Source of the DNA: a virus
DNA: 64,000 nucleotides
IMG/VR virus record: IMGVR_UViG_3300037245_003639
Direction: 5' to 3' (one strand)
In this document: piece by piece, positions 10,392 to 53,548 of the stretch
Layout: each line of letters opens with the position of its first letter
Numbering within the stretch: the stretch's first letter is position 1
Program-made: the position numbers and the translations under genes
Notes under the pieces: generated by a model
What the model was told of the DNA's origin: nothing
Databases searched by the model: none
The model's input: the letters and a program-made list of their open reading frames with translations, nothing else

Positions 10392-10563
10392 GTATATAGC
10401 CTTATCTAGCACGGATGTAAAAGAATGTGGAATTACCTGAATAGACTATCTGACATTGATGAAGGGCAAGCCTGGAGATTGTTGTGTGTGTTGTCGTTTG
10501 TCACAGGGATGGTCGCATGTAACTCTCTGTGGTTATTAGTCCTTTGATCCTGGGTGGGTTTTA

Positions 10564-10625
10564 GGGTGCGTGGCTCAGCTCGTGCTTGGCCGAAAAGATC
10601 GTGGGTTCGAATCCCACCTCGCCCA
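10564..10625 (+). pseudogene. truncated tRNA-like element (about 62 nt)
   Basis: Acceptor GGGTGCG/CTCGCCC and T arm GTGGGTTCGAATCCCAC are present, but only about 30 nt lie between them, so the D and anticodon arms are incomplete. Confidence 0.4.
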
Positions 10626-10636
10626 TTAGTGAAACA

Positions 10637-11717: not shown

Positions 11718-11929
11718 TTACGACATACCTTCACGCTAGTTGCTATGCAGCAAGCCGGAGGCAGCGGTCCTGGCGGGTGAACCTAACCTGTTACTCTACC
11801 GTCAGGTAAGATTACATCATGGAGTAAGGGACTGGTAACAGAGACGCCTTATTATCATGGTGCCGCTATGAAAGTCGTAACTTTTGCCGAGTGGTCTTAC
11901 CCTGAGCCCGACAGACTGCTTGGCAATTT

Positions 11930-12003
11930 GGGAGCGTAGCTCAGTTGGTTAGAGCAATTCGCTGATAACGAATAGGTCAGTGGTTCGACTCCACTCGTTC
12001 CCA
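11930..12003 (+). tRNA. tRNA-Ile(GAT)
   Basis: GGGAGCGTAGCTCAGTTGGTTAGAGC ATTCG CTGATAA CGAAT...AGTGGTTCGACTCCACTCGTTCCCA. Confidence 0.75.
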
Positions 12004-12173
12004 TTTTATCTGCATTTTCCTTGACAAAAGAACGATGACCAACCTGGCTTGGCAACGAGTATTTGAGGAAATGCGGAAATGCGTTCTTACTTGTTGTCGA
12101 TGTCACAGAGAAATTGAGTACAGGATAATTCCCGCAAAGAAAGTCACAGCCGTTTATCGCGAAAGGCAGATCG

Positions 12174-12479
12174 ATGAAACTGATGGTTGAATTAGAAGGA
12201 ACGGGATTTCCTCCTCCTTCGTCATTTGATGGACTTGAATTTGAACAGCGCAACATAAAAGAAAAACGAGATGGAAAACCAGATGGAGGGTTTTCGTTTG
12301 TCGGTTATGTCGTAATTTCTCTCGGGAGCGCTGCAAGCGGTGTAATAGGCAATTACATCTTTGCCTGGTTGAGAAGTCCAGGAGCAAAAGTGATGAGTCT
12401 CAAAATTGAAGGGGAGCGCATAAACCCTGATGATGTAGACGCCATAGCTGACGCAGTAAAAAAGAGACTCACACAGTAA
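12174..12479 (+). CDS. hypothetical protein
   Basis: 101 aa with a Gly-rich hydrophobic segment; sits between a complete tRNA-Ile and a tRNA 3' fragment. Confidence 0.4.
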   Translation: MKLMVELEGTGFPPPSSFDGLEFEQRNIKEKRDGKPDGGFSFVGYVVISLGSAASGVIGNYIFAWLRSPGAKVMSLKIEGERINPDDVDAIADAVKKRLTQ

Positions 12480-12486
12480 GGATGAA

Positions 12487-12514
12487 GTCGTTGGTTCGAC
12501 TCCAACCGTTCCCA
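12487..12514 (+). repeat. tRNA 3' fragment (T arm + acceptor), paralogous to the tRNA-Ile 3' end
   Basis: GTCGTTGGTTCGACTCCAACCGTTCCCA versus GTCAGTGGTTCGACTCCACTCGTTCCCA in tRNA-Ile, with compensatory changes in the T stem. Confidence 0.5.
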
Positions 12515-12621
12515 TTCGAGGTGAAAGATGTCTGGATGGTGGTATGTAGGAATCGCGCTGGTGGTAGTTGTAGCCCTGGTAGCTAAATGGCTATGGAACC
12601 AAATCATCAGCATCGATTAGA

Positions 12622-12693
12622 TGGCTCGTGGTCTACTGGTTACGACGCTTCCCTGATAAGGAAGAGAAGATGGTTCAATTCCATTCGAGCCAA
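12622..12693 (+). tRNA. tRNA-Ile(GAT)-like, second copy
   Basis: TGGCTCG...CTTCC CTGATAA GGAAG...GATGGTTCAATTCCATTCGAGCCAA, with a T1-A72 first pair. Confidence 0.5.
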
Positions 12694-12695
12694 TT

Positions 12696-12857
12696 TGACA
12701 GGTGGTCTAATACCGCAAGGACATGTGAGACATGCAAAAGCAGCTATCTTGGATAGGTGTCCCGTAAAATTCTAGATCTCGATACGGGTGAATCGCTCTT
12801 GCTGGGGAAAGATGGCATCTACCGGTGTCGATGTGGGTTCGAATCCCATCCTGTCAT
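12696..12857 (+). pseudogene. tRNA-like with about 80-nt internal insertion (disrupted or intron-bearing)
   Basis: 5' TGACAGGTGGTCTAATACC... and 3' ...GTGGGTTCGAATCCCATCCTGTCA halves pair as an acceptor stem but lie about 160 nt apart. Confidence 0.25.
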
Positions 12858-12860
12858 TTT

Positions 12861-12933
12861 GGGGCAGTAGCTCAGTTGGGAGAGCGCCGTCTTCGCAAGG
12901 CGGAGGTTGCGGGTTCGAATCCCGTCTGCTCCA
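12861..12933 (+). tRNA. tRNA-Ala(CGC)
   Basis: GGGGCAGTAGCTCAGTTGGGAGAGC CCGTC TTCGCAA GGCGG...GCGGGTTCGAATCCCGTCTGCTCCA, with the G3:U70 Ala identity pair. Confidence 0.75.
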
Positions 12934-12935
12934 TT

Positions 12936-13100
12936 GGGTCGGTGGCTTAATTGGTAGAGCGTGCCGTGCAGAAAGGCAAGTCGGTCATAGATGCCTAAGC
13001 CCAGGGTTAAAAGTGTATCTTAGGTGTACCCGACATGACTGGAGAACAGTCTTTAGGCAGACCTGTGGCAAGAGTATGGGTTCGAATCCCGTCCGATCCA
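12936..13100 (+). tRNA. tRNA-Ala-like with about 90-nt insertion (putative intron)
   Basis: Acceptor GGGTCGG/CCGATCC with G3:U70, D arm TGGCTTAATTGGTAGAGC and T arm ATGGGTTCGAATCCCGT are all present, but the anticodon region is interrupted by about 90 extra nt. Confidence 0.35.
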
Positions 13101-13104
13101 TTAG

Positions 13105-13311
13105 GTGAATGAAATGGTTGTATATTGCGATTGTCCGTGCCATAAACCAGGAGCGACAATACTTCACTTTGATGCCTGCTGTAGTCTTTGTCCAAAATGT
13201 GGCAAGGGTATTGTTCGTGGTTTCAAGGAACATTTTGGAACCTGCACGGGTGAGTTGCTTAACAAAGTGAAACGAAAGAGAAGGCAAAAACCAGAACCGC
13301 CTTGGGTATAA
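13105..13311 (+). CDS. Cys-rich small protein
   Basis: 68 aa with CDCPCH...CSLCPKCG. Confidence 0.4.
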   Translation: MNEMVVYCDCPCHKPGATILHFDACCSLCPKCGKGIVRGFKEHFGTCTGELLNKVKRKRRQKPEPPWV

Positions 13312-13315
13312 ATTT

Positions 13316-13388
<73 letters not shown>

Positions 13389-13390
13389 TT

Positions 13391-13672
13391 ATGAAAGAGA
13401 AAACCCTGACAGAAGTATGGACGGAATTAGACCACTGGATTTACATGCATCAAGATGGCGGCATAGTATATGACAATCACGCTCAGAATTCGTTTGAGCA
13501 AGCCGGTGGAGATTTCGATACGCTGATACTGGCTATTGAAGATCATATTGTGCAAGATGACGATGACAAGGAAGTTATAGATTGGCCGTCTGTCGAAACA
13601 ACGTATGAGCATATGGTTCAACAACCTGAGTGGACCGACAAGGATTGGAAATTCAATCCTGATTGGTTTTGA
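13391..13672 (+). CDS. hypothetical acidic protein
   Basis: Start trimmed to MKEKTLTEVW after the tRNA. Confidence 0.4.
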   Translation: MKEKTLTEVWTELDHWIYMHQDGGIVYDNHAQNSFEQAGGDFDTLILAIEDHIVQDDDDKEVIDWPSVETTYEHMVQQPEWTDKDWKFNPDWF

Positions 13673-14003: not shown

Positions 14004-14094
14004 GGATAGGCTGGATTCCCATTGGTGCGGGACACTTGATTGCTAATCAAGGGATCGTTTCGGCGGTTTAAGAGTTCGAATCTCTTCCTATCCG
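14004..14094 (+). tRNA. tRNA-Ser(GCT)
   Basis: Class II tRNA: GGATAGG...CTTGA TTGCTAA TCAAG, long variable arm, AAGAGTTCGAATCTCTTCCTATCCG. Confidence 0.65.
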
Positions 14095-14096
14095 TT

Positions 14097-17381: not shown

Positions 17382-17824
17382 AACCAAAATTCTGCGGACG
17401 CTGTGGCAACCCTTCATACACAGGAGAGCACGGAAATCGGTGTCCCGCCTGTCAGTTTGTGGCTCCTTTACAATTGACTATGGATACCACTGATAAGTTT
17501 CTGAGAATTGAACGCGATGAGCCCGTATCTTTTCAACTTCTCGGCGATCCGAAGCCAGTTCAATGTCATCATGGAGAACACTCATGGCTGGCCTACGAAA
17601 TGACAGTTCTACATGATAACAAAGAGAAAACATTACGTTTGTGCAAAATGGCAATGCAACAGTTGGTCTTACTAATCAAAACCGGTCATCCAACAAATGG
17701 GCGATATCAAATCGCTCGTTCTGGTTATGGATTACAGACTAGTTACGAGATTATCGCTCTCGATAAGATTCAAACTCCGTCACAACCGTCTATATGGTCA
17801 AAACTATTTGCTTGGATGCACTGA
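17378..17824 (+). CDS. zinc-ribbon protein
   Basis: CGRCGN...CPAC at the N-terminus. Confidence 0.45.
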   Translation: MKPKFCGRCGNPSYTGEHGNRCPACQFVAPLQLTMDTTDKFLRIERDEPVSFQLLGDPKPVQCHHGEHSWLAYEMTVLHDNKEKTLRLCKMAMQQLVLLIKTGHPTNGRYQIARSGYGLQTSYEIIALDKIQTPSQPSIWSKLFAWMH

Positions 17825-18627
17825 TGAAAATATCAATAGCACAGATCAACTGTAAAGCTGGAGACCTGCCAGCTAATCGAGAGAAGATCTTACAATACAT
17901 CATTGTCGCGGCGGACCAGGAAAGCGATCTAATTGTCTTCCCTGAAATGGCTGATACCGGTTATAGCATGAACGATGCGTCTCTTGCTGAAGACTGGCAC
18001 GATGGTCATACTTTCATGCAAGACCTTCGACTTGCGGCTGATCACCATAATATCGCAATCATCTGTGGCCTGGCCGAACGAGAGCAAAAACAACTTTACA
18101 ACAGCGTGCTGGCTATCGATAAAGATGGTCGCTTGCTACAGAAATACCGCAAGACTCATCTATTCTCTCTTGCTGGTGAAGACGAAGTCCTGACGGCTGG
18201 TGATGAGTTCATAGTGACCGCCATCAACCAGTATCAAGCCAAAGAACCGATTGTTAGGGTCGGTCTGATGATTTGTTACGATGTCCGCTTTCCAGAAATG
18301 TGTCGAAAGCTGGTTGCTGAGAAATTTGCTGACATTTTAGTTGTTGTTGCTGCTTTTCCTTTCCCAAGACTTGAACATTGGAAGACTCTCACAGCATGTA
18401 GAGCTATGGAAAATCAGGTCTTCGTAGTTGCTGCAAATAGAGTGGGAACCGACAAGGATTTAACCTTTTGCGGAAGTAGTAGTATAATCGACCCGTTTGG
18501 AACTCGAATTGTGGCGGCATCTGAAACTCACGAAATTTTGTTGACGCAGGAGATTGATTTGAATCGTATTCAGGAAGCTCGCGCCAACATGAACCTCCTC
18601 CAAGACCGCCGCACAGATCTCTACTAA
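17824..18627 (+). CDS. carbon-nitrogen hydrolase (nitrilase superfamily; omega-amidase-like)
   Basis: Catalytic Glu-Lys-Cys triad contexts FPEM, YRKTHLF and GLMICYD. Confidence 0.8.
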   Translation: MKISIAQINCKAGDLPANREKILQYIIVAADQESDLIVFPEMADTGYSMNDASLAEDWHDGHTFMQDLRLAADHHNIAIICGLAEREQKQLYNSVLAIDKDGRLLQKYRKTHLFSLAGEDEVLTAGDEFIVTAINQYQAKEPIVRVGLMICYDVRFPEMCRKLVAEKFADILVVVAAFPFPRLEHWKTLTACRAMENQVFVVAANRVGTDKDLTFCGSSSIIDPFGTRIVAASETHEILLTQEIDLNRIQEARANMNLLQDRRTDLY

Positions 18628-18637
18628 AGGAGAATAA

Positions 18638-19813
18638 ATGCGTCAGGTATATCAAGCCTTCAACAACATCGGTCTGTCCAAAATTGTTGAAGTCAGTGAA
18701 GCAGCTCGAAATATTGCACCCGTTTATGAAGAAAAAACTGGCAAACCATTCATTTATTTTCAGCGCGGCGAAGTCGGTTTTGATGTTCCAGCCTACATTC
18801 AACACGCTCTAACGTTAGCTCTGACCAAGGGCCTTACTCGCTACCCGAAATCAGGGGGCGAACCCTGGTTCAAAAGCGCGGTCGTTGAACATCTGAAAGA
18901 AGATGGAATCGAAGGACTAAAGAATGAGAATGTCCTCTGCACCTACGGAGGTCAAGAAGGACTGGAACTCATTTTCTCTCTGTTTCGCGGATGTAAGGTA
19001 GCGGGTTTCACTCCTTGCTGGTCTTGCATGCTCGATAACATCTGGCCCTACGCCGATTCGACATTCATTCCAGTTCCACTTGTGGACTATCAGATCGATT
19101 TTGACAAAGTAGAAGCAGCCATGAAGCAAGCTCCCCTCTTCTACTTCAATACGCCGCACAATCCCACTGGCACAGTCTTCACTCAAGAAGAAATCGAACA
19201 TATAGTTTCTCTCGCGGATAATTATGATGTCCTTCTGATTTCTGACGAAGCTTATAAAGACATCATCTTTGAGGGAGAACATTTCAGCCCACTACGTCTG
19301 AATAGCCCCAATGTTTTCTCGACATTCACTTTCTCAAAATCCTACTGCGCCACAGGGCTTAGAACCGGATATTCAGTTTGTCGTGATACCAGCGTCATTG
19401 AAAAACTTGTCAGGGGAGAATACACACAAACAGCAGGCGTTGCTACTCCCTTGCAATACGCTTTCACCGAGGCTTTGAGGCAAACCGACGCCAGAGAAGA
19501 ATGGCTAACCTTCTATATGAAGGAACTCAGAGCCCGCAAGCAAGCCTTAGAAGAAAGCCTCATGGGACTAAAAATGTCAGTACCGCAGGGAGCCTTCTAT
19601 TGCTTTATTGATTTCAATGATTACATCCCAGTCAATGTAGACCCCGACAAATACCTGATGGATTTACTAATCGAAAACGGCATTGCAGCAGTTCCTGGTT
19701 CTGCTTTTGGCAAGGGCTATGAAGGTTTCATTCGCTTGTCATTTTCTACGTTAGACGCTACACTTGTGGAAGAAGGCGCTAAAAGATTACGGAGCGTGGT
19801 AACAAAGAACTAA
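18638..19813 (+). CDS. PLP-dependent aminotransferase, class I/II
   Basis: NTPHNPTGTV, LISDEAY and SFSKSY (PLP lysine) motifs. Confidence 0.8.
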   Translation: MRQVYQAFNNIGLSKIVEVSEAARNIAPVYEEKTGKPFIYFQRGEVGFDVPAYIQHALTLALTKGLTRYPKSGGEPWFKSAVVEHLKEDGIEGLKNENVLCTYGGQEGLELIFSLFRGCKVAGFTPCWSCMLDNIWPYADSTFIPVPLVDYQIDFDKVEAAMKQAPLFYFNTPHNPTGTVFTQEEIEHIVSLADNYDVLLISDEAYKDIIFEGEHFSPLRLNSPNVFSTFTFSKSYCATGLRTGYSVCRDTSVIEKLVRGEYTQTAGVATPLQYAFTEALRQTDAREEWLTFYMKELRARKQALEESLMGLKMSVPQGAFYCFIDFNDYIPVNVDPDKYLMDLLIENGIAAVPGSAFGKGYEGFIRLSFSTLDATLVEEGAKRLRSVVTKN

Positions 19814-34111: not shown

Positions 34112-34876
34112 ATGCAAAGAGTACGACATCGTTTTCGTCAACTCGACAAACAGAAACACGGCTCTTTGCAGTCTTGCATTAGAACTAACGATCTGGACTC
34201 TGTTGGTGACGGGATGCATCTCACCTATTTCGAGATGCTGGGAAACTTCTCTTTTGGCCGCAACGATTTCGAGGAATCTGTGGAACTCTGGGATTGCATT
34301 ATCCAAGATTTCTCTATACCTGTGACCTTTGTAACAGTTCATCCAGATCGTAATGATCACCGACAGATGTGGCTCCAACGGGGCTACAAAGTTGTTGATA
34401 GTGATGAGAACAAATGGTCCGATGGAGAAATTGGTGGAGAATGTTGCGAGATTTTCTCTGGTCCTCTGGAAGTTGGCAACCTTGTAAATCCTATGGGACA
34501 TTCCACAGATGTCGGTTTCGGCTGGGAACGAATGCTTCAAATCATTGAAAAGAAAGAGCGGGTTGATGAAACCAGTTTGTTTGACCAATCTTTGGACCCA
34601 ATGGTTCGTGATCATGTGCGAACTTTGCGCATTTTGCGGGAACATGACATTCAACCAGGATCAAAAGGACGTGAATATATATGTCGTCGTTTAGTGCGGC
34701 GTATATTAGACCACAATCCGCCGGGCTTTGATGATTGGATTCATCGAGAACGAGAACTACGAGATGATCGCATTCACAAAGGTCGCAAATCTTATAGAAA
34801 GTTTCGTCAGAAATCTTCCCAATGGTGGTGGGAAACTTTCGGAATTTTGCCCGAAGAGATGAAATTGTTGTTATAA
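34112..34876 (+). CDS. alanyl-tRNA synthetase catalytic-domain-only protein (AlaRS-like, no tRNA-binding or editing domains); true start is upstream and out of frame
   Basis: QSCIRTNDLDSVG...HLTYFEMLGNFSFG matches the AlaRS class II core (E. coli QRCVRAGGKHNDLENVG...HHTFFEMLGNFSFGDYF). TDVGFGWERMLQII and VRDHVRTLRILREHD...GREYICRRLVRRIL match VDTGMGLERIAAVL and IADHIRACAFLIADG...GYVLRRIIRRAV. AlaRS-like sequence continues upstream in the +1 frame back to an ATG at about 33990. Confidence 0.7.
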   Translation: MQRVRHRFRQLDKQKHGSLQSCIRTNDLDSVGDGMHLTYFEMLGNFSFGRNDFEESVELWDCIIQDFSIPVTFVTVHPDRNDHRQMWLQRGYKVVDSDENKWSDGEIGGECCEIFSGPLEVGNLVNPMGHSTDVGFGWERMLQIIEKKERVDETSLFDQSLDPMVRDHVRTLRILREHDIQPGSKGREYICRRLVRRILDHNPPGFDDWIHRERELRDDRIHKGRKSYRKFRQKSSQWWWETFGILPEEMKLLL

Positions 34877-37584: not shown

Positions 37585-37614
37585 AAGTGCAGGTTCGAGT
37601 CCTGCCCCGACCAT
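37585..37614 (+). repeat. tRNA 3' fragment (T arm + CCCGACCA)
   Basis: AGTGCAGGTTCGAGTCCTGCCCCGACCA with no upstream 5' half; the matching 5' acceptor GGTCGGG lies about 140 nt downstream. Confidence 0.45.
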
Positions 37615-37800: not shown

Positions 37801-37920
37801 AAGCTGAGATTATCACTCTAATCTAACTGTGCTGGGTCGTTAGGTCAAGCGTCAGTCACAGAACCGCTGGTCGAGGGTTCAAATCCCTCCCCCTGCTTTA
37901 CTGCAATCGTTGTTTCTACT

Positions 37921-37945
37921 TTTGCGGGGGTAGCTCAGTGGCAGA
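37921..37945 (+). pseudogene. tRNA 5' fragment
   Basis: GGGGGTAGCTCAGTGGCAGAGCA has an acceptor and D arm but nothing further. Confidence 0.35.
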
Positions 37946-38020
37946 GCAAGCGTCATCAAGATGATGGCTGACTTAAACGGAGAATACTAACGACCGTGGG
38001 TCCGCCTCAGCACAAACAAT

Positions 38021-38530: not shown

Positions 38531-39805
38531 CTAAGGCTGCGCAGGAATCGGCTCGCCGGTCCAGTACGTAGGATGCGGGCGATGCATTAGATTCTCAAGC
38601 CGCAGACCATTCATCCAAACCGAGTTGTGAACATCACCATATCCGACGATCATGCCCGATTGAATATTGGTGATATTAGCCACCTTCACGCCACGGGTTT
38701 TACCATCCAACCTGACAAAGTATTTGGAGGCATAAGCTTCGTCGTGAATGTTTTCGATAACGACATTGCTAGTCCCTCCATATATCACTTCGTTATCAGT
38801 CTCGTCGCCCAAGACGAATGATGCTCCACAACTCCCGTAAGTCTTCGCCGTGAAATAGATATCATGAATCCAGACCGAGTGTGTTCTTGAACCCAACTTG
38901 ATGATGTAACGATCATGGGGGTCTGCGCCGGTTGGCAGGGTATCACAAGCAAAATGGCAACTACCATCGATAACGCCACCTGCATTACTGATAGCTCCTC
39001 CCGCTCCTGGGGTAAAACCGCCAGCAACATCACCATGGGGTGACGTGATGCGGTGATTATTGTATGAGCTTGTGAAATATGCTCCACCTATTTTACCTTG
39101 GAACCGAAAGTTACATGTATCAGTAATACGATAAACTTCGCAACCAATATTAACAAAACATGCACCACCGTAAGGGCTATCGTCGCCGAAGCGCCCACGC
39201 ATATCGCAGCGGGTGACAATGTTGAGGTTGGCATTATCTGACGGGAATTCCCTAGCCCATAACAAACCGCAACCGGGCATCGTGTAATTGTTATCTAGGG
39301 CTAATAATAACCCATCAAGAGTGGATCTCTCCGTCCCTGTCATATCAACAATAGGAGCGGAGGCTAATTGGGCGGGAAATCGAATGACTGCGAGATAACC
39401 TAATTCAAATTTCAGTTCAATTCTCGATCCTTGACGAAAATTAAGCGTCTGGGGCCAGGTTACTTGACCTGGTGTTATAGGAACAAAAACTCTGCCACCA
39501 CTACCTGCAATTTTAGCCAAAACTTGGCTCTGTACCGACCAGAATTTAGGATACATCGGCTCCAGAATCCCATTTGGCAGTAATCCTTCCGGGCTGCGGA
39601 ACTGTTCAGCTTGGGCTCTGGCTTCATCAGAGGTAAAGGGTACTCCCTTCTTTTTGAGGACTTCCAAAAACTTTTGGACCTTGTCAACCGGTTGCTTATC
39701 AGCGGGTTTGACATTGATGGGTTCGATCTTTGTTTTTTGAGGAGAGTTTACTTGAGCGCAAGCAACCCCAACTAAACATAGACTTACTACTGCAATCCAT
39801 TTCAT
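38531..39805 (-). CDS. secreted beta-helix/pectin-lyase-fold protein
   Basis: Signal peptide MKWIAVVSLCLVGVACAQ; Gly/Asn-rich repeated turns; 424 aa. Confidence 0.5.
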   Translation of the reverse strand: MKWIAVVSLCLVGVACAQVNSPQKTKIEPINVKPADKQPVDKVQKFLEVLKKKGVPFTSDEARAQAEQFRSPEGLLPNGILEPMYPKFWSVQSQVLAKIAGSGGRVFVPITPGQVTWPQTLNFRQGSRIELKFELGYLAVIRFPAQLASAPIVDMTGTERSTLDGLLLALDNNYTMPGCGLLWAREFPSDNANLNIVTRCDMRGRFGDDSPYGGACFVNIGCEVYRITDTCNFRFQGKIGGAYFTSSYNNHRITSPHGDVAGGFTPGAGGAISNAGGVIDGSCHFACDTLPTGADPHDRYIIKLGSRTHSVWIHDIYFTAKTYGSCGASFVLGDETDNEVIYGGTSNVVIENIHDEAYASKYFVRLDGKTRGVKVANITNIQSGMIVGYGDVHNSVWMNGLRLENLMHRPHPTYWTGEPIPAQP

Positions 39806-40166: not shown

Positions 40167-40772
40167 ATGAAACAGTACCCAACCATTGCGAGGACCATTG
40201 ATCGAGGGCTCCAGATATACGCCTTCGACAAAATCGATGGTTCAAACATTCGGGCTGAATGGTCTCGAAAGAACGGCTTCTATAAGTTTGGGAGTCGCAA
40301 TGTGCTCATGGACGTAGATCATGAGCTTGGAGAGGCTGTAAAGCTCATACAGAAGGGTTACGCATTTGCTCTGGGAGAGATCTTCCGCAAGCAACGCTGG
40401 GACAGAGCTATCTGTTTCTTTGAGTTCTCCGGACCCAATTCGTTTGCAGGACAGCATGTTGATGAGCCCCACAAAGTAGTGCTTATCGATGTAAATCCGC
40501 ATAAAAAAGGCATCGAGCCTCCACGGGATTTCATTCGGACGTTCGGCGACCTGGGTATTCCCACTTGTTTGCATGTCGGCAAAGCAACTGTTTCGTTTGA
40601 GCAGTCTGTTCGGGATGGGACTCTGTCGGGATTGGGTTCCGAAGGCGTGGTTTGCAAGGGAGTCCGTAAAGGACGGCATCTGACGATGTTTAAGATCAAG
40701 AGTGATGCATGGATTGCAAAACTCAAAGACTTCTGTGGCGATGATGAAAAGAAGTTCCAGAGGTTACTATGA
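40167..40772 (+). CDS. ATP-dependent RNA ligase-like nucleotidyltransferase
   Basis: Covalent nucleotidyltransferase motifs I KIDGSN, III FFEFSG, IV EGVVCKG and V MFKIKSD in a compact 201-aa protein. Confidence 0.6.
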   Translation: MKQYPTIARTIDRGLQIYAFDKIDGSNIRAEWSRKNGFYKFGSRNVLMDVDHELGEAVKLIQKGYAFALGEIFRKQRWDRAICFFEFSGPNSFAGQHVDEPHKVVLIDVNPHKKGIEPPRDFIRTFGDLGIPTCLHVGKATVSFEQSVRDGTLSGLGSEGVVCKGVRKGRHLTMFKIKSDAWIAKLKDFCGDDEKKFQRLL

Positions 40773-50598: not shown

Positions 50599-52044
50599 AT
50601 GGATTGGAATGATCCCGAGGCAGTAAAAGAATATAATCTGCGGTTCAAGCAGTGGCGTGATCATCGTGCAGAAACTATTGCCACCTTTCCTGAGAGCCCC
50701 AGAGATTTGGGTAGTCAGCATAAGTCAGATCTAAAAGATGATCAAACGGTCAAAGCTATCACTGTTTGCTTCAGTGATATCGAAGGCCGATTCCACATGT
50801 TGGACTATGACAAAGATTATATTCTCGCTTCAGACGATAATCTCACGTTTGATGGTTCCTCTATTAGGGGCTTCACGAACCAAAATGAAAGTGATCTGCG
50901 TCTCGCCTTGGATTGGAGCGCCTTCTATATCGCTCCTCCGTCAGTGTTCGGCCCTGGCAAAGTGATGGTTTTTAGTGAGATCCGAGATAAAGACGGGCAC
51001 CTTTATGACTGTGATATACGGGCACAACTGAAGTTATTTTTGAAGGAAGAGAGTCAACTCGGCAGATTCGTCAATGTTGCCGCTGAAATCGAGGGATTCC
51101 TGTTCGAAGGTCAAAATGCCGAAAAGATTTTCTATCAGAGTCCCGAATTCCACTGTGTAACTACCGGCGGTTATTTTAATACTCTGCCGTCATCCCAACT
51201 GCGTAGTTTCATCGACAAGGCAGCAGAAGCACAACGAGCCCTGGGGTTTGAGAACGAGAAGGATCACCCTGAAGTTGCTCCAGCGCAGTTTGAGTTGAAT
51301 TGGAAATACACTGAGGCTCTAATTGCTGCGGATCAGATTCAGCTTTATAAGATGGTTTGCCGAGTGGTGGCAGATCGCATGGGTTATACAGCATCGTTTC
51401 TTCCTAAACCCCTGGCGGGGGTAAACGGGAATGGCATGCATACCAATATTTCGTTCCACCAGACGGTGCTTAATAAACCAACGAAAAACCTAATGTACGA
51501 CAAGGCTACAAAAGATGGTATTTCTGAGTGGGCTCGGAAATTCGCGGACGGTATCCTGCGGAGAGCTAAAGATATATGTTTGGTTCTAAATCCCAGCGTC
51601 AATGCATACCGTCGCCTCGATCCGCATTACGAGGCTCCTAATGAGATTTTTGCTTCCGCAGTGGATAGGGGAGCGATGATACGTTTCCCACTGTGCAATG
51701 AGAAGTCTGCCCGAGTTGAGGTAAGATCCGTATCTCCTGATGCTAACCCTTATCTATTATTGTTGGTTCTTCTGAAGGCTGGTCTGCGAGGTCAACAGGA
51801 GGAACTAATACCAACGGACAGGCCCTGTGAGTTACTTCCTCAGAATATCCATGAGGCTATCTGTGGATTCAACGATAACATGTTCATTACCGAGGCATTG
51901 GGTCTCGATGCCAGAAGAAAATATGCTGACTGGAAAGAGGCATCTGCGGATCGTTGCCCAAAACTTCTGGGCAAGAATATAAAACCCGCGGAAATAATGT
52001 TCCACCATGAGGTTACTAACCAGCATTTGTGGCAGATGTTCTAA
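50599..52044 (+). CDS. glutamine synthetase family protein (GlnA-like / gamma-glutamyl ligase)
   Basis: KPLAGVNGNGMHTNISF (GS ATP-binding signature region) and SVNAYRRLDPHYEAPNEIF (GS NxYKRLxPGYEAP region). Confidence 0.75.
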   Translation: MDWNDPEAVKEYNLRFKQWRDHRAETIATFPESPRDLGSQHKSDLKDDQTVKAITVCFSDIEGRFHMLDYDKDYILASDDNLTFDGSSIRGFTNQNESDLRLALDWSAFYIAPPSVFGPGKVMVFSEIRDKDGHLYDCDIRAQLKLFLKEESQLGRFVNVAAEIEGFLFEGQNAEKIFYQSPEFHCVTTGGYFNTLPSSQLRSFIDKAAEAQRALGFENEKDHPEVAPAQFELNWKYTEALIAADQIQLYKMVCRVVADRMGYTASFLPKPLAGVNGNGMHTNISFHQTVLNKPTKNLMYDKATKDGISEWARKFADGILRRAKDICLVLNPSVNAYRRLDPHYEAPNEIFASAVDRGAMIRFPLCNEKSARVEVRSVSPDANPYLLLLVLLKAGLRGQQEELIPTDRPCELLPQNIHEAICGFNDNMFITEALGLDARRKYADWKEASADRCPKLLGKNIKPAEIMFHHEVTNQHLWQMF

Positions 52045-52067: not shown

Positions 52068-52571
52068 ATGAAAGATATGCCTTCCGTAATAACAATTGGA
52101 ACTCCCGGTTCTCCAGATGCATTAGGTGGAGGAACTACTGCCGACGAGACGACGACGGTTCCCGTCATTCCGCCTCAGCAGGGAGAATCTGAGGCTGAAT
52201 CTCGATTGGCCTCTGATGAGAGTACAGGCATCAGTACGGGAAGACCACGATTTCAGGATGAAGATGAACTCAACCTTGTCACTCGACAGGCTATTCAAAT
52301 GGAAGCGGTCAGGCTAATTAGAGTGGAGCAGCAAGTTGTCAACCAAAGTGAGCCGCAGTCAGCCACATCATCGAATGAAGTTGTCGCCCAGGCAACTAAT
52401 AGAACTTATGTATCACAGCAACGCATAGACGATGCCGTGAGAGCATTACAGAAACTACAACGCTCTTGTAATCATATTTATGACAAAGTTTCACGGAGAT
52501 GTCTATACTGCACAAAACATAGAAATTCGCATGTTTATGATACGACCAGAATGATTTTGAATCAAAGTTGA
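52068..52571 (+). CDS. hypothetical protein with Thr/Ser-rich N-terminus
   Basis: 167-aa ORF. Confidence 0.4.
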   Translation: MKDMPSVITIGTPGSPDALGGGTTADETTTVPVIPPQQGESEAESRLASDESTGISTGRPRFQDEDELNLVTRQAIQMEAVRLIRVEQQVVNQSEPQSATSSNEVVAQATNRTYVSQQRIDDAVRALQKLQRSCNHIYDKVSRRCLYCTKHRNSHVYDTTRMILNQS

Positions 52572-53548
52572 AACACACTGGAGTTGATATGTTAGATGCA
52601 TTTGCCAAATATCTGGTAGACGAACGTCATCTGTCTTCAAAGACAGAACGTTTCTACCGAGTGGACGTTCAACACTTCAAACGTTTTCTTGACAACGATG
52701 TATTGCCAACCCGGCAAAATTCTCCCCAGACCAAAGATGTTTTGGATGTTACGAGAGATGATATTCAACTCTTTGCTGATTATCTGACGCGCGACTACAA
52801 ACCCCGCACAATCAATCGCAAGATTGCTGCGCTCGGTGCCTTCTACCGCTTTCTCATCAAGAAGGGTTTTCTGGAGAAATCTCCTATTCATCACGAAAAG
52901 AAACCGGGTGGAGGGTTGGATATCAGAAAACCCCGCGTTCCCAAGGAAGATCTGGTTCATATATCGGATGATAATATCAAGATGTTACTTGAATCCATAG
53001 ACCCAGATAGTAAACTGAGAAAGTTGCGAGACAAAGCCCTTTACAGTCTGATGGCCCTAGCTGGGTTAAAAGCTCCCGAACTACAGTCTATGACTTTGGG
53101 AGACGTGGATATCACTGACAAAACTGTCAAAATAATCCGTAGGAAAGAGTTAGTTTTTATTCCTGTGGACCATGAGTTACTTTCTGTAATCGAAACATAT
53201 TACTTCGCTCGTTTGGACAACAACGACAGCCTCACCGATTCTGACTTTTTGTTTATCAACAAACATGGCAAAAGTCTAAGTTGTCGCAGTATGCGCCGCA
53301 ATCTGGTAAGATACGCGCTGGAAGCAGGTATCCGAGTTAATCCCTCTCAGTTGCGTCATTCCTTTGCCATCAACGCAGTTCGCCAAGGGGTAGATTTGAC
53401 GGTATTGCAGCAACAGCTTGGACACCTTGCTAAGACAACAATGAAAGCTTACAAAATTCCACAGGATATGATTAATCTAGGAGACGCGGCCCCTATCGAG
53501 GAGGTCGAACCCATTGCGGAGGTGACGACTTGTGAGTACGTGGGATAA
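52568..53548 (+). CDS. int: tyrosine recombinase/integrase (XerC/D-like)
   Basis: N-terminal SAM-like core-binding domain (FYRVDVQHFKRFL); C-terminal LRHSFAINAVRQGVDL...LGHLAKTTMKAYKI (R-HxxR-Y catalytic pattern). Confidence 0.75.
   Translation: MKHTGVDMLDAFAKYLVDERHLSSKTERFYRVDVQHFKRFLDNDVLPTRQNSPQTKDVLDVTRDDIQLFADYLTRDYKPRTINRKIAALGAFYRFLIKKGFLEKSPIHHEKKPGGGLDIRKPRVPKEDLVHISDDNIKMLLESIDPDSKLRKLRDKALYSLMALAGLKAPELQSMTLGDVDITDKTVKIIRRKELVFIPVDHELLSVIETYYFARLDNNDSLTDSDFLFINKHGKSLSCRSMRRNLVRYALEAGIRVNPSQLRHSFAINAVRQGVDLTVLQQQLGHLAKTTMKAYKIPQDMINLGDAAPIEEVEPIAEVTTCEYVG

What the first reader, a model, noticed from the sequence alone, without database searches (positions are those of the whole stretch)
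12696..13100. Two tRNA genes interrupted by 80-90-nt insertions inside the Ala/Ile array
At 12936..13100 all tRNA-Ala hallmarks are present: acceptor GGGTCGG/CCGATCC with G3:U70, D arm and T arm. About 90 nt intervene in the anticodon region, too short for a typical group I intron and suggestive of a small intron, an inserted mini-element or a split gene. The neighbouring 12696..12857 element likewise has pairing acceptor halves TGACAGG/CCTGTCA separated by about 160 nt. Intron-bearing tRNAs in phage tRNA arrays are rare and would need a splicing activity; the RNA ligase at 40167..40772 is a candidate partner.
Basis: seen in the sequence. Interest (0 to 1): 0.55.

Follow-up and report, generated by a model that had tools for sequence, protein, structure and literature searches.

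The report
tRNA-shaped RNAs in phage tRNA array
One of the two "interrupted tRNAs" belongs to a conserved, uncatalogued family of about 160-nt alanine-tRNA-shaped RNAs in giant-phage tRNA arrays, in which a fixed structured module replaces the anticodon loop, so it is probably a non-decoding tRNA mimic rather than a gene awaiting splicing; the other is a lineage-specific expansion of an odd tRNA-like gene.

Summary
Both elements exist at the stated coordinates.

**Y (12936-13100).** The Rfam tRNA model matches it end to end (43.4 bits), with 101 nt replacing the tip of the anticodon arm. Its frame is closest to tRNA-Ala (G3:U70, A73).

I found four divergent homologues of 155-163 nt in other phage-like tRNA arrays. 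The "insert" is the most conserved part:
- Invariant motifs CAGAAA, AU-G and CUUUAGGNAGA(N)CCUG.
- Helices P2, H1 and H2 that covary.
- 99% of cells paired, 25 of 45 pairs with compensatory changes, 0 of 500 shuffles as good.

No consistent excision restores a 7-nt anticodon loop. No group I or ribozyme family matches. No splicing enzymes were found in the window.

Best reading: a new family of non-decoding, probably alanine-accepting tRNA mimics, comparable in kind to the tmRNA tRNA-like domain or T4 RNAC. Function is unknown.

**X (12696-12857).** It has a perfect acceptor stem and T arm, but no tRNA covariance-model match. Its only orthologue (70 nt) lacks the roughly 90-nt insert. This is a lineage-specific expansion, possibly a rearrangement scar.

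The proposed RNA ligase partner has only a weak PHROG match. The family is absent from Rfam 15, GenBank phages, IMG/VR and GTDB representatives.

The parts
12936..13100 (+). Y: complete 165-nt tRNA-shaped RNA gene, including discriminator A13100. It lies 2 nt after tRNA-Ala(CGC) and 4 nt before the next ORF.
   Evidence: Rfam tRNA CM 43.4 bits over the whole element. Family CM R1 97.3 bits. Homologues.
12936..12942 (+). Y acceptor stem 5' strand GGGUCGG. It pairs with 13093-13099 (CCGAUCC) and contains G3:U70.
   Evidence: Sequence. 7 pairs, 4 of them with compensatory changes across 5 homologues.
12945..12960 (+). Y D arm: GCUU / AAUUGGUA / GAGC, with G18 G19.
   Evidence: All 4 pairs show changes on both sides across the homologues. 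The D arm is absent in L012.
12962..12965 (+). Y stem S 5' strand (UGCC), equivalent to the anticodon stem. It pairs with 13067-13070 (GGCA).
   Evidence: 5 of 5 pairs covary. The Rfam CM pairs the same bases.
12969..12975 (+). Motif M1, CAGAAAG. CAGAAA is invariant in all 5 homologues.
12980..13034 (+). Helix P2 (GUCGG 12980-84 with CCGAC 13030-34) enclosing hairpin H1 (12993-13025).
   Evidence: P2: 5 of 6 pairs have changes on both sides and 100% of cells are paired. H1: 3 of 7 pairs covary. RNAalifold recovers both helices.
13035..13051 (+). Invariant AU followed by hairpin H2 (GACUG-GAGAA-CAGUC) with an invariant closing G-C pair.
   Evidence: 3 of 5 pairs covary and 100% of cells are paired. 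Recovered by RNAalifold.
13051..13065 (+). Motif M2, CUUUAGGCAGACCUG. The family consensus is CUUUAGGNAGA(N)CCUG. It occurs only once in the window.
   Evidence: Its pairing is unresolved: either CAG/CUG plus AAA/UUU with an 8-nt bulge, or a local hairpin UAGG-NAGA-CCUG.
13076..13092 (+). Y T arm: AUGGG-UUCGAAU-CCCGU.
12696..12857 (+). X: 162-nt tRNA-like element. It has acceptor UGACAGG/CCUGUCA (12696-12702 / 12850-12856), discriminator U12857 and T arm 12833-12849.
   Evidence: Sequence. A fold with the acceptor and T arm enforced equals the MFE of -50.5 kcal/mol. There is no Rfam tRNA match.
12705..12722 (+). X D-like arm 1 (GUCU-AAUACCGCAA-GGAC). It is colinear with the D arm of orthologue L010:171-240.
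   Evidence: Manual comparison of the sequences, which I prefer here. The MAFFT alignment instead aligned the orthologue's D region with D-like arm 2.
12723..12796 (+). X lineage-specific insert of about 74-90 nt. It holds hairpins CUAUC-UUG-GAUAG (12744-56) and CCCGUA...UACGGG (12761-88). It is absent from the orthologue.
   Evidence: There is no significant similarity to the Y module or to anything in the phage collection.
12797..12829 (+). X D-like arm 2 (UCUU-GCUGGGGA-AAGA, 12797-12812) and a short hairpin GGCAUC-UACC-GGUGUC (12814-29). The hairpin takes the place of an anticodon arm and has only a 4-nt loop.
   Evidence: The orthologue has GCCGU-AGGCC-ACGGU at the same place.

Best explanation
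Y is not a split or intron-bearing tRNA gene. It is one member of a conserved family of about 155-165-nt tRNA-shaped non-coding RNAs embedded in the tRNA arrays of large phages.

Architecture (shown):
- A tRNA-Ala-derived frame: 7-bp acceptor stem, usually a D arm, a 4-5-bp anticodon-equivalent stem, a 4-5-nt variable region and a canonical T arm.
- The stem does not end in an anticodon loop. It opens into a roughly 95-nt module with invariant motifs CAGAAA, AU-G and CUUUAGGNAGA(N)CCUG.
- The motifs surround a junction with two covarying helices: P2, which encloses hairpin H1, and H2.

How it most likely works (inferred):
1. It is transcribed with the array and released like its neighbours by RNase P and 3' processing. 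It sits 2-7 nt from flanking tRNAs, and it follows the local convention of encoding CCA in the one array that does so.
2. It folds into an L-shape through D-loop and T-loop contacts.
3. It is charged with alanine. G3:U70 plus A73 occur in 4 of 5 members, and AlaRS does not read the anticodon (established knowledge).
4. Having no anticodon loop, it cannot decode. The conserved module instead docks the charged mimic to a partner such as the ribosome or a protein, or makes it a decoy.

The precise function is unknown.

X is a different thing. It is a non-canonical tRNA-like gene with a short hairpin in place of an anticodon arm. In this phage lineage it carries a roughly 90-nt expansion with a second D-like arm. 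Its only orthologue is 70 nt and lacks the expansion. The expansion is most likely a product of the duplication and insertion turnover that homing endonucleases cause in these arrays. It is of uncertain function.
For: Tool results:
- The Rfam tRNA CM matches the whole of Y (43.4 bits), with 101 nt replacing the anticodon-arm tip. The same holds for homologue L010:1714-1874 (44.2 bits).
- There are four divergent homologues: L010 (found via a 74%-identical neighbouring protein), and L012, L013 and L014 (metagenome pattern scan). All lie inside tRNA arrays next to Val, Ile, Phe or Ala tRNAs. There is one copy per contig.
- Lengths are 155-165 nt, and the spacing between the two motifs is 73-78 nt.
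- Covariation: 45 pairs in 9 helices, 99.0% of cells paired against 77% in shuffles, 25 pairs with changes on both sides, 0/500 shuffles as good, and slid controls at 32-53% paired.
- RNAalifold recovers the acceptor, D, S, P2, H1, H2 and T helices.
- After the five members (80-97 bits), the best hits of family CM R1 are the five tRNA-Ala genes held (39-44 bits). The ends of Y are 79% and 90% identical to the adjacent tRNA-Ala(CGC).
- No Rfam intron, ribozyme or tmRNA family matches.
- Brute-force deletion never yields a canonical tRNA. The only recurrent call is 'CAG with G33'.

From the sequence directly:
- The offset of CAGAAA from the stem is 0-3 nt.
- The same window encodes an AlaRS-like catalytic-core ORF at 34112-34876 (Pfam 67.9 bits; PDB AlaRS E=4e-16).

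For X:
- Orthologue L010:171-240 is a 70-nt element scoring 38 bits with the tRNA CM.
- The acceptor, D, hairpin and T stems differ between the two by compensatory changes.
- HNH genes flanked by partial tRNA duplicates occur at 12035-12515 and in L001 and L010.
Against: - There are no expression, processing or charging data. Every functional step is inferred.
- There are only five distinct sequences.
- The alignment was made by hand around the proposed helices, so the pair counts lean towards it. MAFFT alone misaligns the variable parts.
- The invariant motifs cannot be assigned a pairing.
- One member (L010) has A3:U70 and G73, so alanine identity is not universal. L012 lacks a D stem.
- For Y itself the family structure (-39.2 kcal/mol) is less stable than an idiosyncratic MFE fold (-53.9 kcal/mol). 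The fold is not unusually stable against shuffles (z = -1.6).
- A protein-dependent or novel self-splicing mechanism cannot be excluded by sequence analysis.
- For X there is a single orthologue and no CM support.
Confidence: 0.55

Rival explanations
1. Y, and perhaps X, is a genuine tRNA gene with an ancient, vertically inherited small intron at the anticodon loop. The conserved module is removed, either by a new small ribozyme activity of its own or by phage or host proteins, and the exons are joined by an RNA ligase to give a decoding tRNA-Ala.
For: - The module sits exactly where tRNA introns sit, and the tRNA CM accepts the flanks.
- Strong sequence conservation of an internal module is what a catalytic intron would show.
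- Megaphage tRNAs with 'enigmatic introns' have been reported (10.1101/356790).
- An RNA-ligase-like ORF exists at 40167-40772 (PHROG E=8e-9).
- NGC triplets precede AGAAAG in three of the G3:U70 members.
Against: - No consistent splice register exists. The exons contribute only 0-3 loop nucleotides, and the offset to the invariant motif varies.
- No excision gives U33 and R37. The only recurrent anticodon call is CAG with G33.
- At about 95 nt the module is far below group I size, and no intron or self-cleaving ribozyme family scores even at E<=10.
- There is no bulge-helix-bulge geometry.
- No EndA or RtcB was found among about 40 ORFs.
- The window already has Ala tRNAs with CGC, GGC and UGC anticodons.
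Confidence: 0.2
2. The elements are non-functional scars: tRNA genes broken by homing-endonuclease-driven insertion, duplication and deletion. The two matching halves simply derive from one former tRNA.
For: - These arrays contain such scars. One is tRNA-Ile, then an HNH remnant and an ORF, then a duplicated Ile 3' fragment, across 11929-12515.
- Others are tRNA-Ala, an HNH gene and an Ala 3' fragment in L001, and a degenerate Ala copy, an HNH gene and an intact Ala in L010.
- The insert of X is absent from its orthologue, and X contains two D-like arms.
- X gets no tRNA CM match.
Against: - For Y this is excluded in practice. Five homologues at about 70% identity or less keep length, motifs and every helix through compensatory changes.
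- For X the shared frame (acceptor, T arm, hairpin) also keeps pairing through compensatory changes against L010:171-240, so at least the frame is under selection.
- The tight 2-3-nt packing between neighbouring tRNAs is retained.
Confidence: 0.1
3. Y is a cis-acting processing or stability element of the polycistronic tRNA transcript, for example a nuclease entry site or a protective structure. It is tRNA-shaped only so that RNase P can cut next to it, and it has no trans function.
For: - It is always inside arrays and a few nucleotides from the flanking tRNAs.
- T4 RNAC and RNAD are likewise array-embedded, and their roles remain unknown (PMC3014915).
Against: - Retention of the Ala identity set (G3:U70 and A73 in 4 of 5), an encoded CCA in L012, and the G18G19 and T-loop tertiary partners is not needed for a mere processing signal.
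- Fifteen or more invariant nucleotides in unpaired positions suggest a specific binding partner.
Confidence: 0.1

Closest known systems
tRNA-like domain of tmRNA (SsrA)
   Same: - It is derived from or shaped like tRNA-Ala, with a G3:U70 acceptor, A73 and a canonical T arm.
- It has no anticodon.
- The helix that replaces the anticodon stem leads into a larger functional domain.
- It is charged without anticodon reading.
- tmRNAs occur in huge phages (PMC7162821).
   Different: - The family is only 155-165 nt, against about 260-400 nt.
- There is no tag reading frame with a conserved stop, and there are no pseudoknots.
- A normal D stem is present in 4 of 5 members.
- Neither ARAGORN nor the Rfam tmRNA models detect it.
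- No SmpB gene was found in the window.
- One member lacks G3:U70.
Phage T4 stable RNA species 1 (RNAC)
   Same: - It is a roughly 140-nt stable RNA encoded inside a phage tRNA cluster.
- It has a canonical T arm (CCGGG-UUCGAAU-CCCGG), paired termini and large extra hairpins.
- Its function is still unknown (PMC3014915, PMC9697503).
   Different: - There is no sequence homology. Model R1 scores it at 23 bits, through tRNA-like parts only.
- It has none of the family motifs, no G3:U70 frame and a different internal architecture.
'Enigmatic introns' in megaphage tRNAs (Lak phages, Devoto et al., 10.1101/356790)
   Same: Oversized tRNA genes in very large phage genomes that bacterial tRNA finders miss. 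The inserts are highly conserved and no splicing mechanism is known.
   Different: - Those were reported in Phe, Gly, Thr and Tyr tRNAs with an assignable anticodon, and some inserts look like a nested tRNA.
- Here the insert is one conserved module in an Ala-type frame and leaves no usable anticodon loop.
Bacterial tRNA genes with group I introns (tRNA-Leu UAA, tRNA-Ile CAU of Azoarcus and others)
   Same: An insertion at the anticodon loop of a bacterial-type tRNA that is conserved over long evolutionary distances.
   Different: - Group I introns are about 200 nt or longer, with a P3-P9 core that the Rfam group I intron model should detect. No such match was found.
- They have a fixed splice register with U at position -1 and a terminal G. 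Neither is seen here.
YrlA, the bacterial Y RNA-like tRNA mimic
   Same: A non-decoding RNA with a tRNA-like module that also occurs in phages. The window has a separate sub-threshold YrlA-like hit at 37852-37974.
   Different: The YrlA model touches X and Y only across junctions of adjacent T and D arms (11-29 bits against a gathering score of 69). There is no Ro-binding helix, and the order of elements is different.

Membership tests
Canonical tRNA (Rfam RF00005) | Covariance-model score above the gathering threshold across acceptor, D and T arms | tested here: met
   Y scores 43.4 bits against a threshold of 29, over model positions 1-71, through a 101-nt local insertion. X has no RF00005 match.
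Canonical tRNA (Rfam RF00005) | A 7-nt anticodon loop with U33 and purine 37 on a 5-bp stem | tested here: not met
   In Y the stem opens into a roughly 95-nt module. The only local hairpin gives UGCAGAA with G33 and a G.A closing pair. No deletion restores a canonical loop. X has a 4-nt hairpin loop.
tRNA-Ala identity | G3:U70 wobble pair plus discriminator A73 | tested here: met
   Y, L012, L013 and L014 have both. L010 has A3:U70 and G73. X has A3-U70 and U73. Actual charging was not tested.
Group I intron in tRNA | Group I catalytic core detectable by covariance model, at a length of about 200 nt or more | tested here: not met
   No intron family scores at E<=10 on 12400-13400, or on Y or X alone. 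The inserts are about 92-101 nt and 74-90 nt.
Archaeal/eukaryal protein-spliced tRNA intron | Bulge-helix-bulge motif at the exon-intron junctions, or a fixed 37/38 position | tested here: not met
   The junction geometry is a stem, a 0-3-nt linker and then the invariant motif. There are no 3-nt bulges spaced by 4 bp and the register is variable.
Archaeal/eukaryal protein-spliced tRNA intron | Splicing endonuclease and RtcB- or Trl1-type ligase encoded or available | tested here: inconclusive
   None was found among about 40 window ORFs. One Rnl-like PHROG hit was found at 40167-40772. Only 64 kb of a roughly 403-kb genome was seen.
tmRNA | Detection by ARAGORN or Rfam tmRNA models, and a tag ORF with a resume codon and an in-frame stop | tested here: not met
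   There is no tmRNA call. The reading frames from the conserved motifs end at inconsistent places in the five members (inspection of the sequences).
tmRNA | An alanine-type tRNA-like domain without an anticodon | tested here: met
Small self-cleaving ribozymes (hammerhead, twister, twister-sister, pistol, hatchet, HDV-like) | A match to the family covariance model | tested here: not met
   No such hit at E<=10 with lax filters on Y alone or on the 1-kb region. The junction strands do not fit the hammerhead core by inspection.
T4 RNAC-type array-embedded stable RNA | Encoded within a phage tRNA cluster, with paired termini and a canonical T arm, and larger than a tRNA | tested here: met
   This is resemblance in kind only, because sequence homology is not met (23 bits).
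New Y-type family (this work) | Motifs CAGAAA ... AU-G ... CUUUAGGNAGA(N)CCUG inside a tRNA frame, with covarying helices P2, H1 and H2 | tested here: met
   Y scores 97.3 bits with R1 (by construction). The motifs are exact. X does not match; only its T arm does, at 16 bits.

The most novel reading that the evidence does not exclude
The Y family is a new class of alanine-charged, anticodon-less tRNA mimic used by giant phages to act on the translation apparatus. It could be a minimal, tag-less analogue of tmRNA that enters ribosomal A sites. It could instead be a dedicated alanine donor or AlaRS decoy working with the phage's own truncated AlaRS-like protein (34112-34876). In either case the invariant module would be the docking element.
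Probability: 0.2. Interest if true: 0.85.

Novelty: new variant of a known kind. Interest (0 to 1): 0.68.

Why it matters
Huge phages carry near-complete tRNA sets, aminoacyl-tRNA synthetases and tmRNAs, and are thought to take over host translation. Oversized "tRNAs with enigmatic introns" have been noted in them but never explained.

This work shows that at least one such element is a structured RNA family with strong covariation, an alanine-tRNA frame and no anticodon. That turns an annotation oddity into a defined and testable object, with a covariance model, invariant motifs, and predictions for processing and charging.

If the RNA is alanylated and non-decoding, it would be only the second natural class after tmRNA to exploit AlaRS's independence from the anticodon. 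If it is instead spliced, it would define a new, very small bacterial-type tRNA intron. Either outcome is of interest to RNA and phage biologists.

There is also a practical consequence. Standard tRNA finders miss or mislabel these genes: ARAGORN calls Y Leu-CAG and X Pro-GGG. That could mislead inferences about phage codon usage or recoding.

Tried and rejected
1. **Canonical intron models.** ARAGORN -i gave X as 'Pro(ggg)' with a poor stem and Y as 'Leu(cag)' with G33. Brute-force excision of every 40-120-nt segment gave no canonical tRNA. Rejected.
2. **Group I intron, ribozyme or tmRNA.** No Rfam match.
3. **Mini-tmRNA with a tag ORF.** The frames from CAG, GCA or AUG end at inconsistent positions. 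Rejected as a tagging RNA.
4. **Hammerhead-like three-way junction, K-turn at the invariant motifs, and resemblance of AGGAAGAC / ACAGAA to RNase P CR-I / CR-V.** All considered by inspection only. The cores do not fit and no RNase P model hit falls on Y. Not pursued.
5. **Homologues in GenBank phages.** None found.
6. **Homologues in IMG/VR.** None found. Six DNA patterns were scanned; only the last matched, and its two hits are coding-sequence chance matches.
7. **Homologues in GTDB genomes.** 23 pattern hits, all chance matches without a T arm.
8. **Synteny through neighbouring proteins.** The 342-aa and 220-aa ORFs gave no relatives in IMG/VR. Relatives of the PTP-like protein either stop short of X and Y (L001, L002) or lie in non-tRNA contexts. 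The 68-aa ORF has no homologue. The 93-aa ORF finally led to L010.
9. **Homology between the X insert and the Y module.** The local alignment score is reached by 262 of 2000 shuffles. Rejected.
10. **MAFFT alignments of the family (A1, A2).** They misregister the variable parts and were replaced by an anchored hand alignment (A3).
11. **AlaRS-like gene in the other loci.** None found by tblastn, but the loci are short.
Full report
**Setting.** The window is a tRNA-rich stretch of a very large phage-like genome.
- ARAGORN finds 44 tRNAs and Rfam finds 43.
- The identical 93-aa protein lies on a 403-kb JGI contig. Two short JGI contigs are 100% identical to the window.
- X (12696-12857) and Y (12936-13100) lie on the + strand in an unbroken string: tRNA-Ile(GAU), 2 nt, X, 3 nt, tRNA-Ala(CGC), 2 nt, Y, 4 nt, ORF.
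- Neither is called by default ARAGORN or by Rfam with its standard filters.

**Checking the observation: Y.**
- Searched alone, the Rfam tRNA model matches 12936-13100 end to end at 43.4 bits (E=1.7e-8). It pairs UGCC with GGCA as the anticodon stem and skips 101 nt in place of 9 model positions.
- The ends of Y are 79% and 90% identical to those of the adjacent tRNA-Ala(CGC).

**Checking the observation: X.**
- X has 7/7 Watson-Crick terminal pairing and a perfect T arm. A fold with these enforced equals the MFE.
- The tRNA model does not match it. ARAGORN's intron model, 'Pro(ggg)', has a 3-of-5 anticodon stem.
- Terminal 7-bp pairings as such are common by chance in these arrays, so comparative evidence was needed.

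**Is it an ordinary intron?** No.
- No intron, ribozyme or tmRNA family scores even at E<=10.
- I excised every possible 40-120-nt segment and re-ran ARAGORN. For Y this gives only 'CAG with G33'. For X it gives only abnormal 6- or 8-nt loops.

**Finding relatives.**
- The inserts have no BLAST relatives in 50,697 GenBank phage records. Exact patterns were absent from IMG/VR.
- Synteny through neighbouring proteins mostly failed.
- A 74%-identical homologue of the 93-aa ORF downstream of Y led to contig L010, which is about 73% identical in DNA. There tRNA-Ala(CGC) is again followed, 3 nt later, by a 161-nt element (1714-1874).
- The acceptor stem of that element (GGAAACG/CGUUUCC) differs from Y at four pairs, all compensatory. 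Three blocks are conserved: AAUUGGUAGA, CAGAAAG and CUUUAGGNAGA(N)CCUG.
- A degenerate pattern built on the last block plus the T loop found three further, much more divergent members in JGI and ENA metagenome contigs: L012:497-651, L013:951-1113 and L014:9434-9593.
- All three sit inside dense tRNA arrays with homing-endonuclease genes, next to Val, Ile or Phe tRNAs.
- The same motifs in GTDB genomes (23 hits) and IMG/VR (2 hits) are chance matches in coding DNA without a T arm.
- The other members also have no relatives in GenBank phages.

**Anatomy of the family.**
- The five sequences are 155-165 nt. The two motifs are 73-78 nt apart.
- An anchored hand alignment (A3) gives this order of elements:
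  - acceptor stem (7 bp);
  - D arm (absent in L012);
  - stem S (4-5 bp, equivalent to the anticodon stem);
  - a 0-3-nt linker, then invariant CAGAAA;
  - J1 (consensus G-CYGANA);
  - helix P2 (5-6 bp) enclosing hairpin H1 (loop GUCAUAA or GUCGCUA in three members);
  - invariant AU;
  - hairpin H2 with an invariant G-C closing pair;
  - invariant UUUAGGNAGA(N)CCUG;
  - the return strand of S, a 3-5-nt variable region, the T arm and the acceptor 3' strand.
- On this structure 99.0% of 199 cells are standard pairs, against 77% in column shuffles. 25 of 45 pairs have changes on both sides, and 0 of 500 shuffles reach any of the five measures. Sliding the partners by 1-3 columns drops pairing to 32-53%.
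- RNAalifold on the same alignment recovers the acceptor, D, S, P2, H1, H2 and T helices.
- The pairing of the invariant motifs cannot be decided. I proposed CAG/CUG plus AAA/UUU with an 8-nt bulge AGGAAGAC. RNAalifold prefers a local hairpin UAGG-NAGA-CCUG.
- Caveats:
  - The alignment is fitted by hand, and MAFFT alone misaligns the variable loops.
  - There are only five sequences.
  - For Y itself an idiosyncratic fold is more stable than the family fold.

**What the frame is.**
- A covariance model of the family (R1) scores the five members at 80-97 bits and finds one copy per contig.
- The next best hits in 146 kb of window and loci are exactly the five tRNA-Ala genes held (39-44 bits). 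All other tRNAs fall below them.
- Four of five members carry G3:U70 and A73. L012, whose neighbouring tRNAs encode CCA, also encodes CCA.
- L010 has A3:U70 and G73, so alanine identity is frequent but not universal.

**Why I do not think it is spliced.**
- The exons would contribute only 0-3 nucleotides to an anticodon loop.
- The invariant motif starts 0, 1, 2, 2 or 3 nt after the stem in the five members. No single splice rule produces a 7-nt loop with U33 and R37.
- The module of about 95 nt is the best conserved part of the gene. It is not a tolerated passenger.
- There is no bulge-helix-bulge geometry.
- No splicing endonuclease, RtcB or SmpB appears among about 40 window ORFs.
- The window already has Ala tRNAs for CGC, GGC and UGC.
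- The 'RNA ligase' at 40167-40772 has only a PHROG match (E=8e-9). It has no Pfam or NCBIfam match.
- A new kind of small intron cannot be excluded from sequence alone. I give it 0.2.

**Most likely mechanism.**
- Shown: a conserved tRNA-Ala-shaped RNA with a structured module in place of the anticodon loop, embedded in tRNA arrays.
- Inferred:
  - It is released by the tRNA processing enzymes.
  - It is alanylated, because AlaRS recognises the acceptor stem and not the anticodon (established knowledge, and the same logic that allows tmRNA to be charged).
  - It is unable to decode.
  - The module is a docking or decoy surface.
- The window also encodes a 254-aa AlaRS-like catalytic-core protein at 34112-34876 (Pfam tRNA-synt_2c 67.9 bits; best PDB hits are AlaRS, E=4e-16). 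That is a suggestive possible partner, but no link is demonstrated.

**X.**
- L010 carries, at the head of its Ala cluster, a 70-nt element (171-240). The Rfam tRNA model scores it at 38 bits.
- Its acceptor (UGGCAGA/UCUGUCA), D loop (AAUAUGGCA), short hairpin (GCCGU-AGGCC-ACGGU), GAC spacer and T arm are colinear with X. They differ from X by compensatory changes.
- X has in addition about 74-90 nt (12723-12796) and a second D-like arm (12797-12812).
- The insert shows no significant similarity to the Y module or to anything else.
- These arrays are full of homing-endonuclease genes flanked by partial tRNA duplicates. I therefore read the insert of X as a lineage-specific expansion or rearrangement inside a non-canonical, probably non-decoding tRNA-like gene.

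**Comparison with what is known.**
- In kind, the Y family resembles three things: the tRNA-like domain of tmRNA, T4 RNAC (a tRNA-cluster RNA with a T arm and unknown function) and the 'enigmatic introns' of Lak megaphage tRNAs.
- It is not a member of any of them. It has no tag ORF and no tmRNA model hit, no homology to RNAC, and no usable anticodon.
- It is absent from Rfam 15.

**Verdict.**
- The intron interpretation is largely not supported for Y and undecided for X.
- The finding uncovers a new, well-supported RNA family of unknown function.
- Interest is 0.68.

Noticed in passing
window 34112-34876 (+): A 254-aa ORF related to the catalytic core of alanyl-tRNA synthetase. Pfam tRNA-synt_2c scores 67.9 bits, TIGR00344 scores 70.9 bits (far below the equivalog cut-off), and the best PDB hits are AlaRS at E=4e-16. 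It is much shorter than any known active AlaRS fragment. It is a possible partner of the Ala-type RNA Y, but no link is shown.
   Followed up: partly
L012:1467-1674 (-): A roughly 208-nt element in a related phage tRNA array matches bacterial RNase P RNA class A over the whole model (38 bits, E=1.4e-10, below the gathering score). P1-P4, CR-I (GAGGAA..) and CR-V (GACAGAAUCCUGG) are present and the specificity domain is missing. It may be a phage-encoded minimal RNase P RNA. It lies directly upstream of a tRNA-Ile.
   Followed up: partly
window 11929-12515: A complete tRNA-Ile(GAU) is followed by an HNH-like remnant ORF (12035-12190), a 101-aa ORF (12174-12479) and then a duplicated tRNA-Ile 3' fragment (T arm plus acceptor, 12480-12515). 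This is the footprint of a mobile insertion. The same pattern (tRNA, HNH gene, 3' fragment) occurs in L001:3607-4330 and L010:905-1710.
   Followed up: partly
window 14004-14095 (+): A probable tRNA-Ser(GCU) that default ARAGORN and Rfam miss. The 94.5%-identical relative L001:136-224 is called tRNA-Ser(gct).
   Followed up: partly
window 25516-25589 (+): A tRNA-like gene with a 6-nt anticodon loop AGCUAA. ARAGORN calls it 'tRNA-?(ct)' only at a lowered threshold. It could present CUA, which would make it amber-suppressor-like. Not examined further.
   Followed up: no
window 10551-10626 (+): A tRNA-like element with an 8-bp acceptor stem, a tiny D arm and a 6-bp anticodon stem. ARAGORN calls it 'Thr(cgt)' at a lowered threshold, and family model R1 scores it at 26 bits. 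It recalls the allo-tRNA-type non-canonical cloverleaves described in PMC5389517.
   Followed up: no
window 37852-37974 (+); T-loop motifs at 37593 and 37877: A sub-threshold full-length match to YrlA, the Y RNA-like tRNA mimic (34.6 bits against a gathering score of 69, E=9e-4). No Ro60/TROVE gene was recognised nearby; ORF 38531-39805 has no family hit.
   Followed up: no
window 30573-33203 (-): An 876-aa ORF with major vault protein domains (MVP_shoulder E=1.2e-24; Vault_3 E=7.5e-8). This is unusual for a phage.
   Followed up: no
It has no Pfam or NCBIfam hit. At 201 aa it is shorter than the 341-position profile.
   Followed up: partly
L014:5217-5412 (-), L013:6319-6458 (-), L013:3646-3758 (-): Other oversized tRNA-like elements (195, 140 and 113 nt) occur in the related arrays. 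The first contains a nested tRNA-like unit, as described for Lak megaphage 'introns'. Interrupted or expanded tRNA-like genes seem common in these arrays.
   Followed up: no
window 50599-52044 and 52568-53548 (+): A glutamine synthetase (Gln-synt_C E=3e-71) and a tyrosine integrase/recombinase (Phage_integrase E=1e-23) are encoded downstream. Also present are a carbon-nitrogen hydrolase (17794-18627) and a class I/II aminotransferase (18638-19813).
   Followed up: no
window 1-28000 (tRNA array as a whole): Many isoacceptors occur as two dissimilar copies: Phe-GAA, Lys-CUU, Lys-UUU, Asn-GUU, Ile-GAU, His-GUG and Glu-UUC, each twice. No Leu, Tyr, Trp, Cys or Asp tRNA lies in the window.
   Followed up: no
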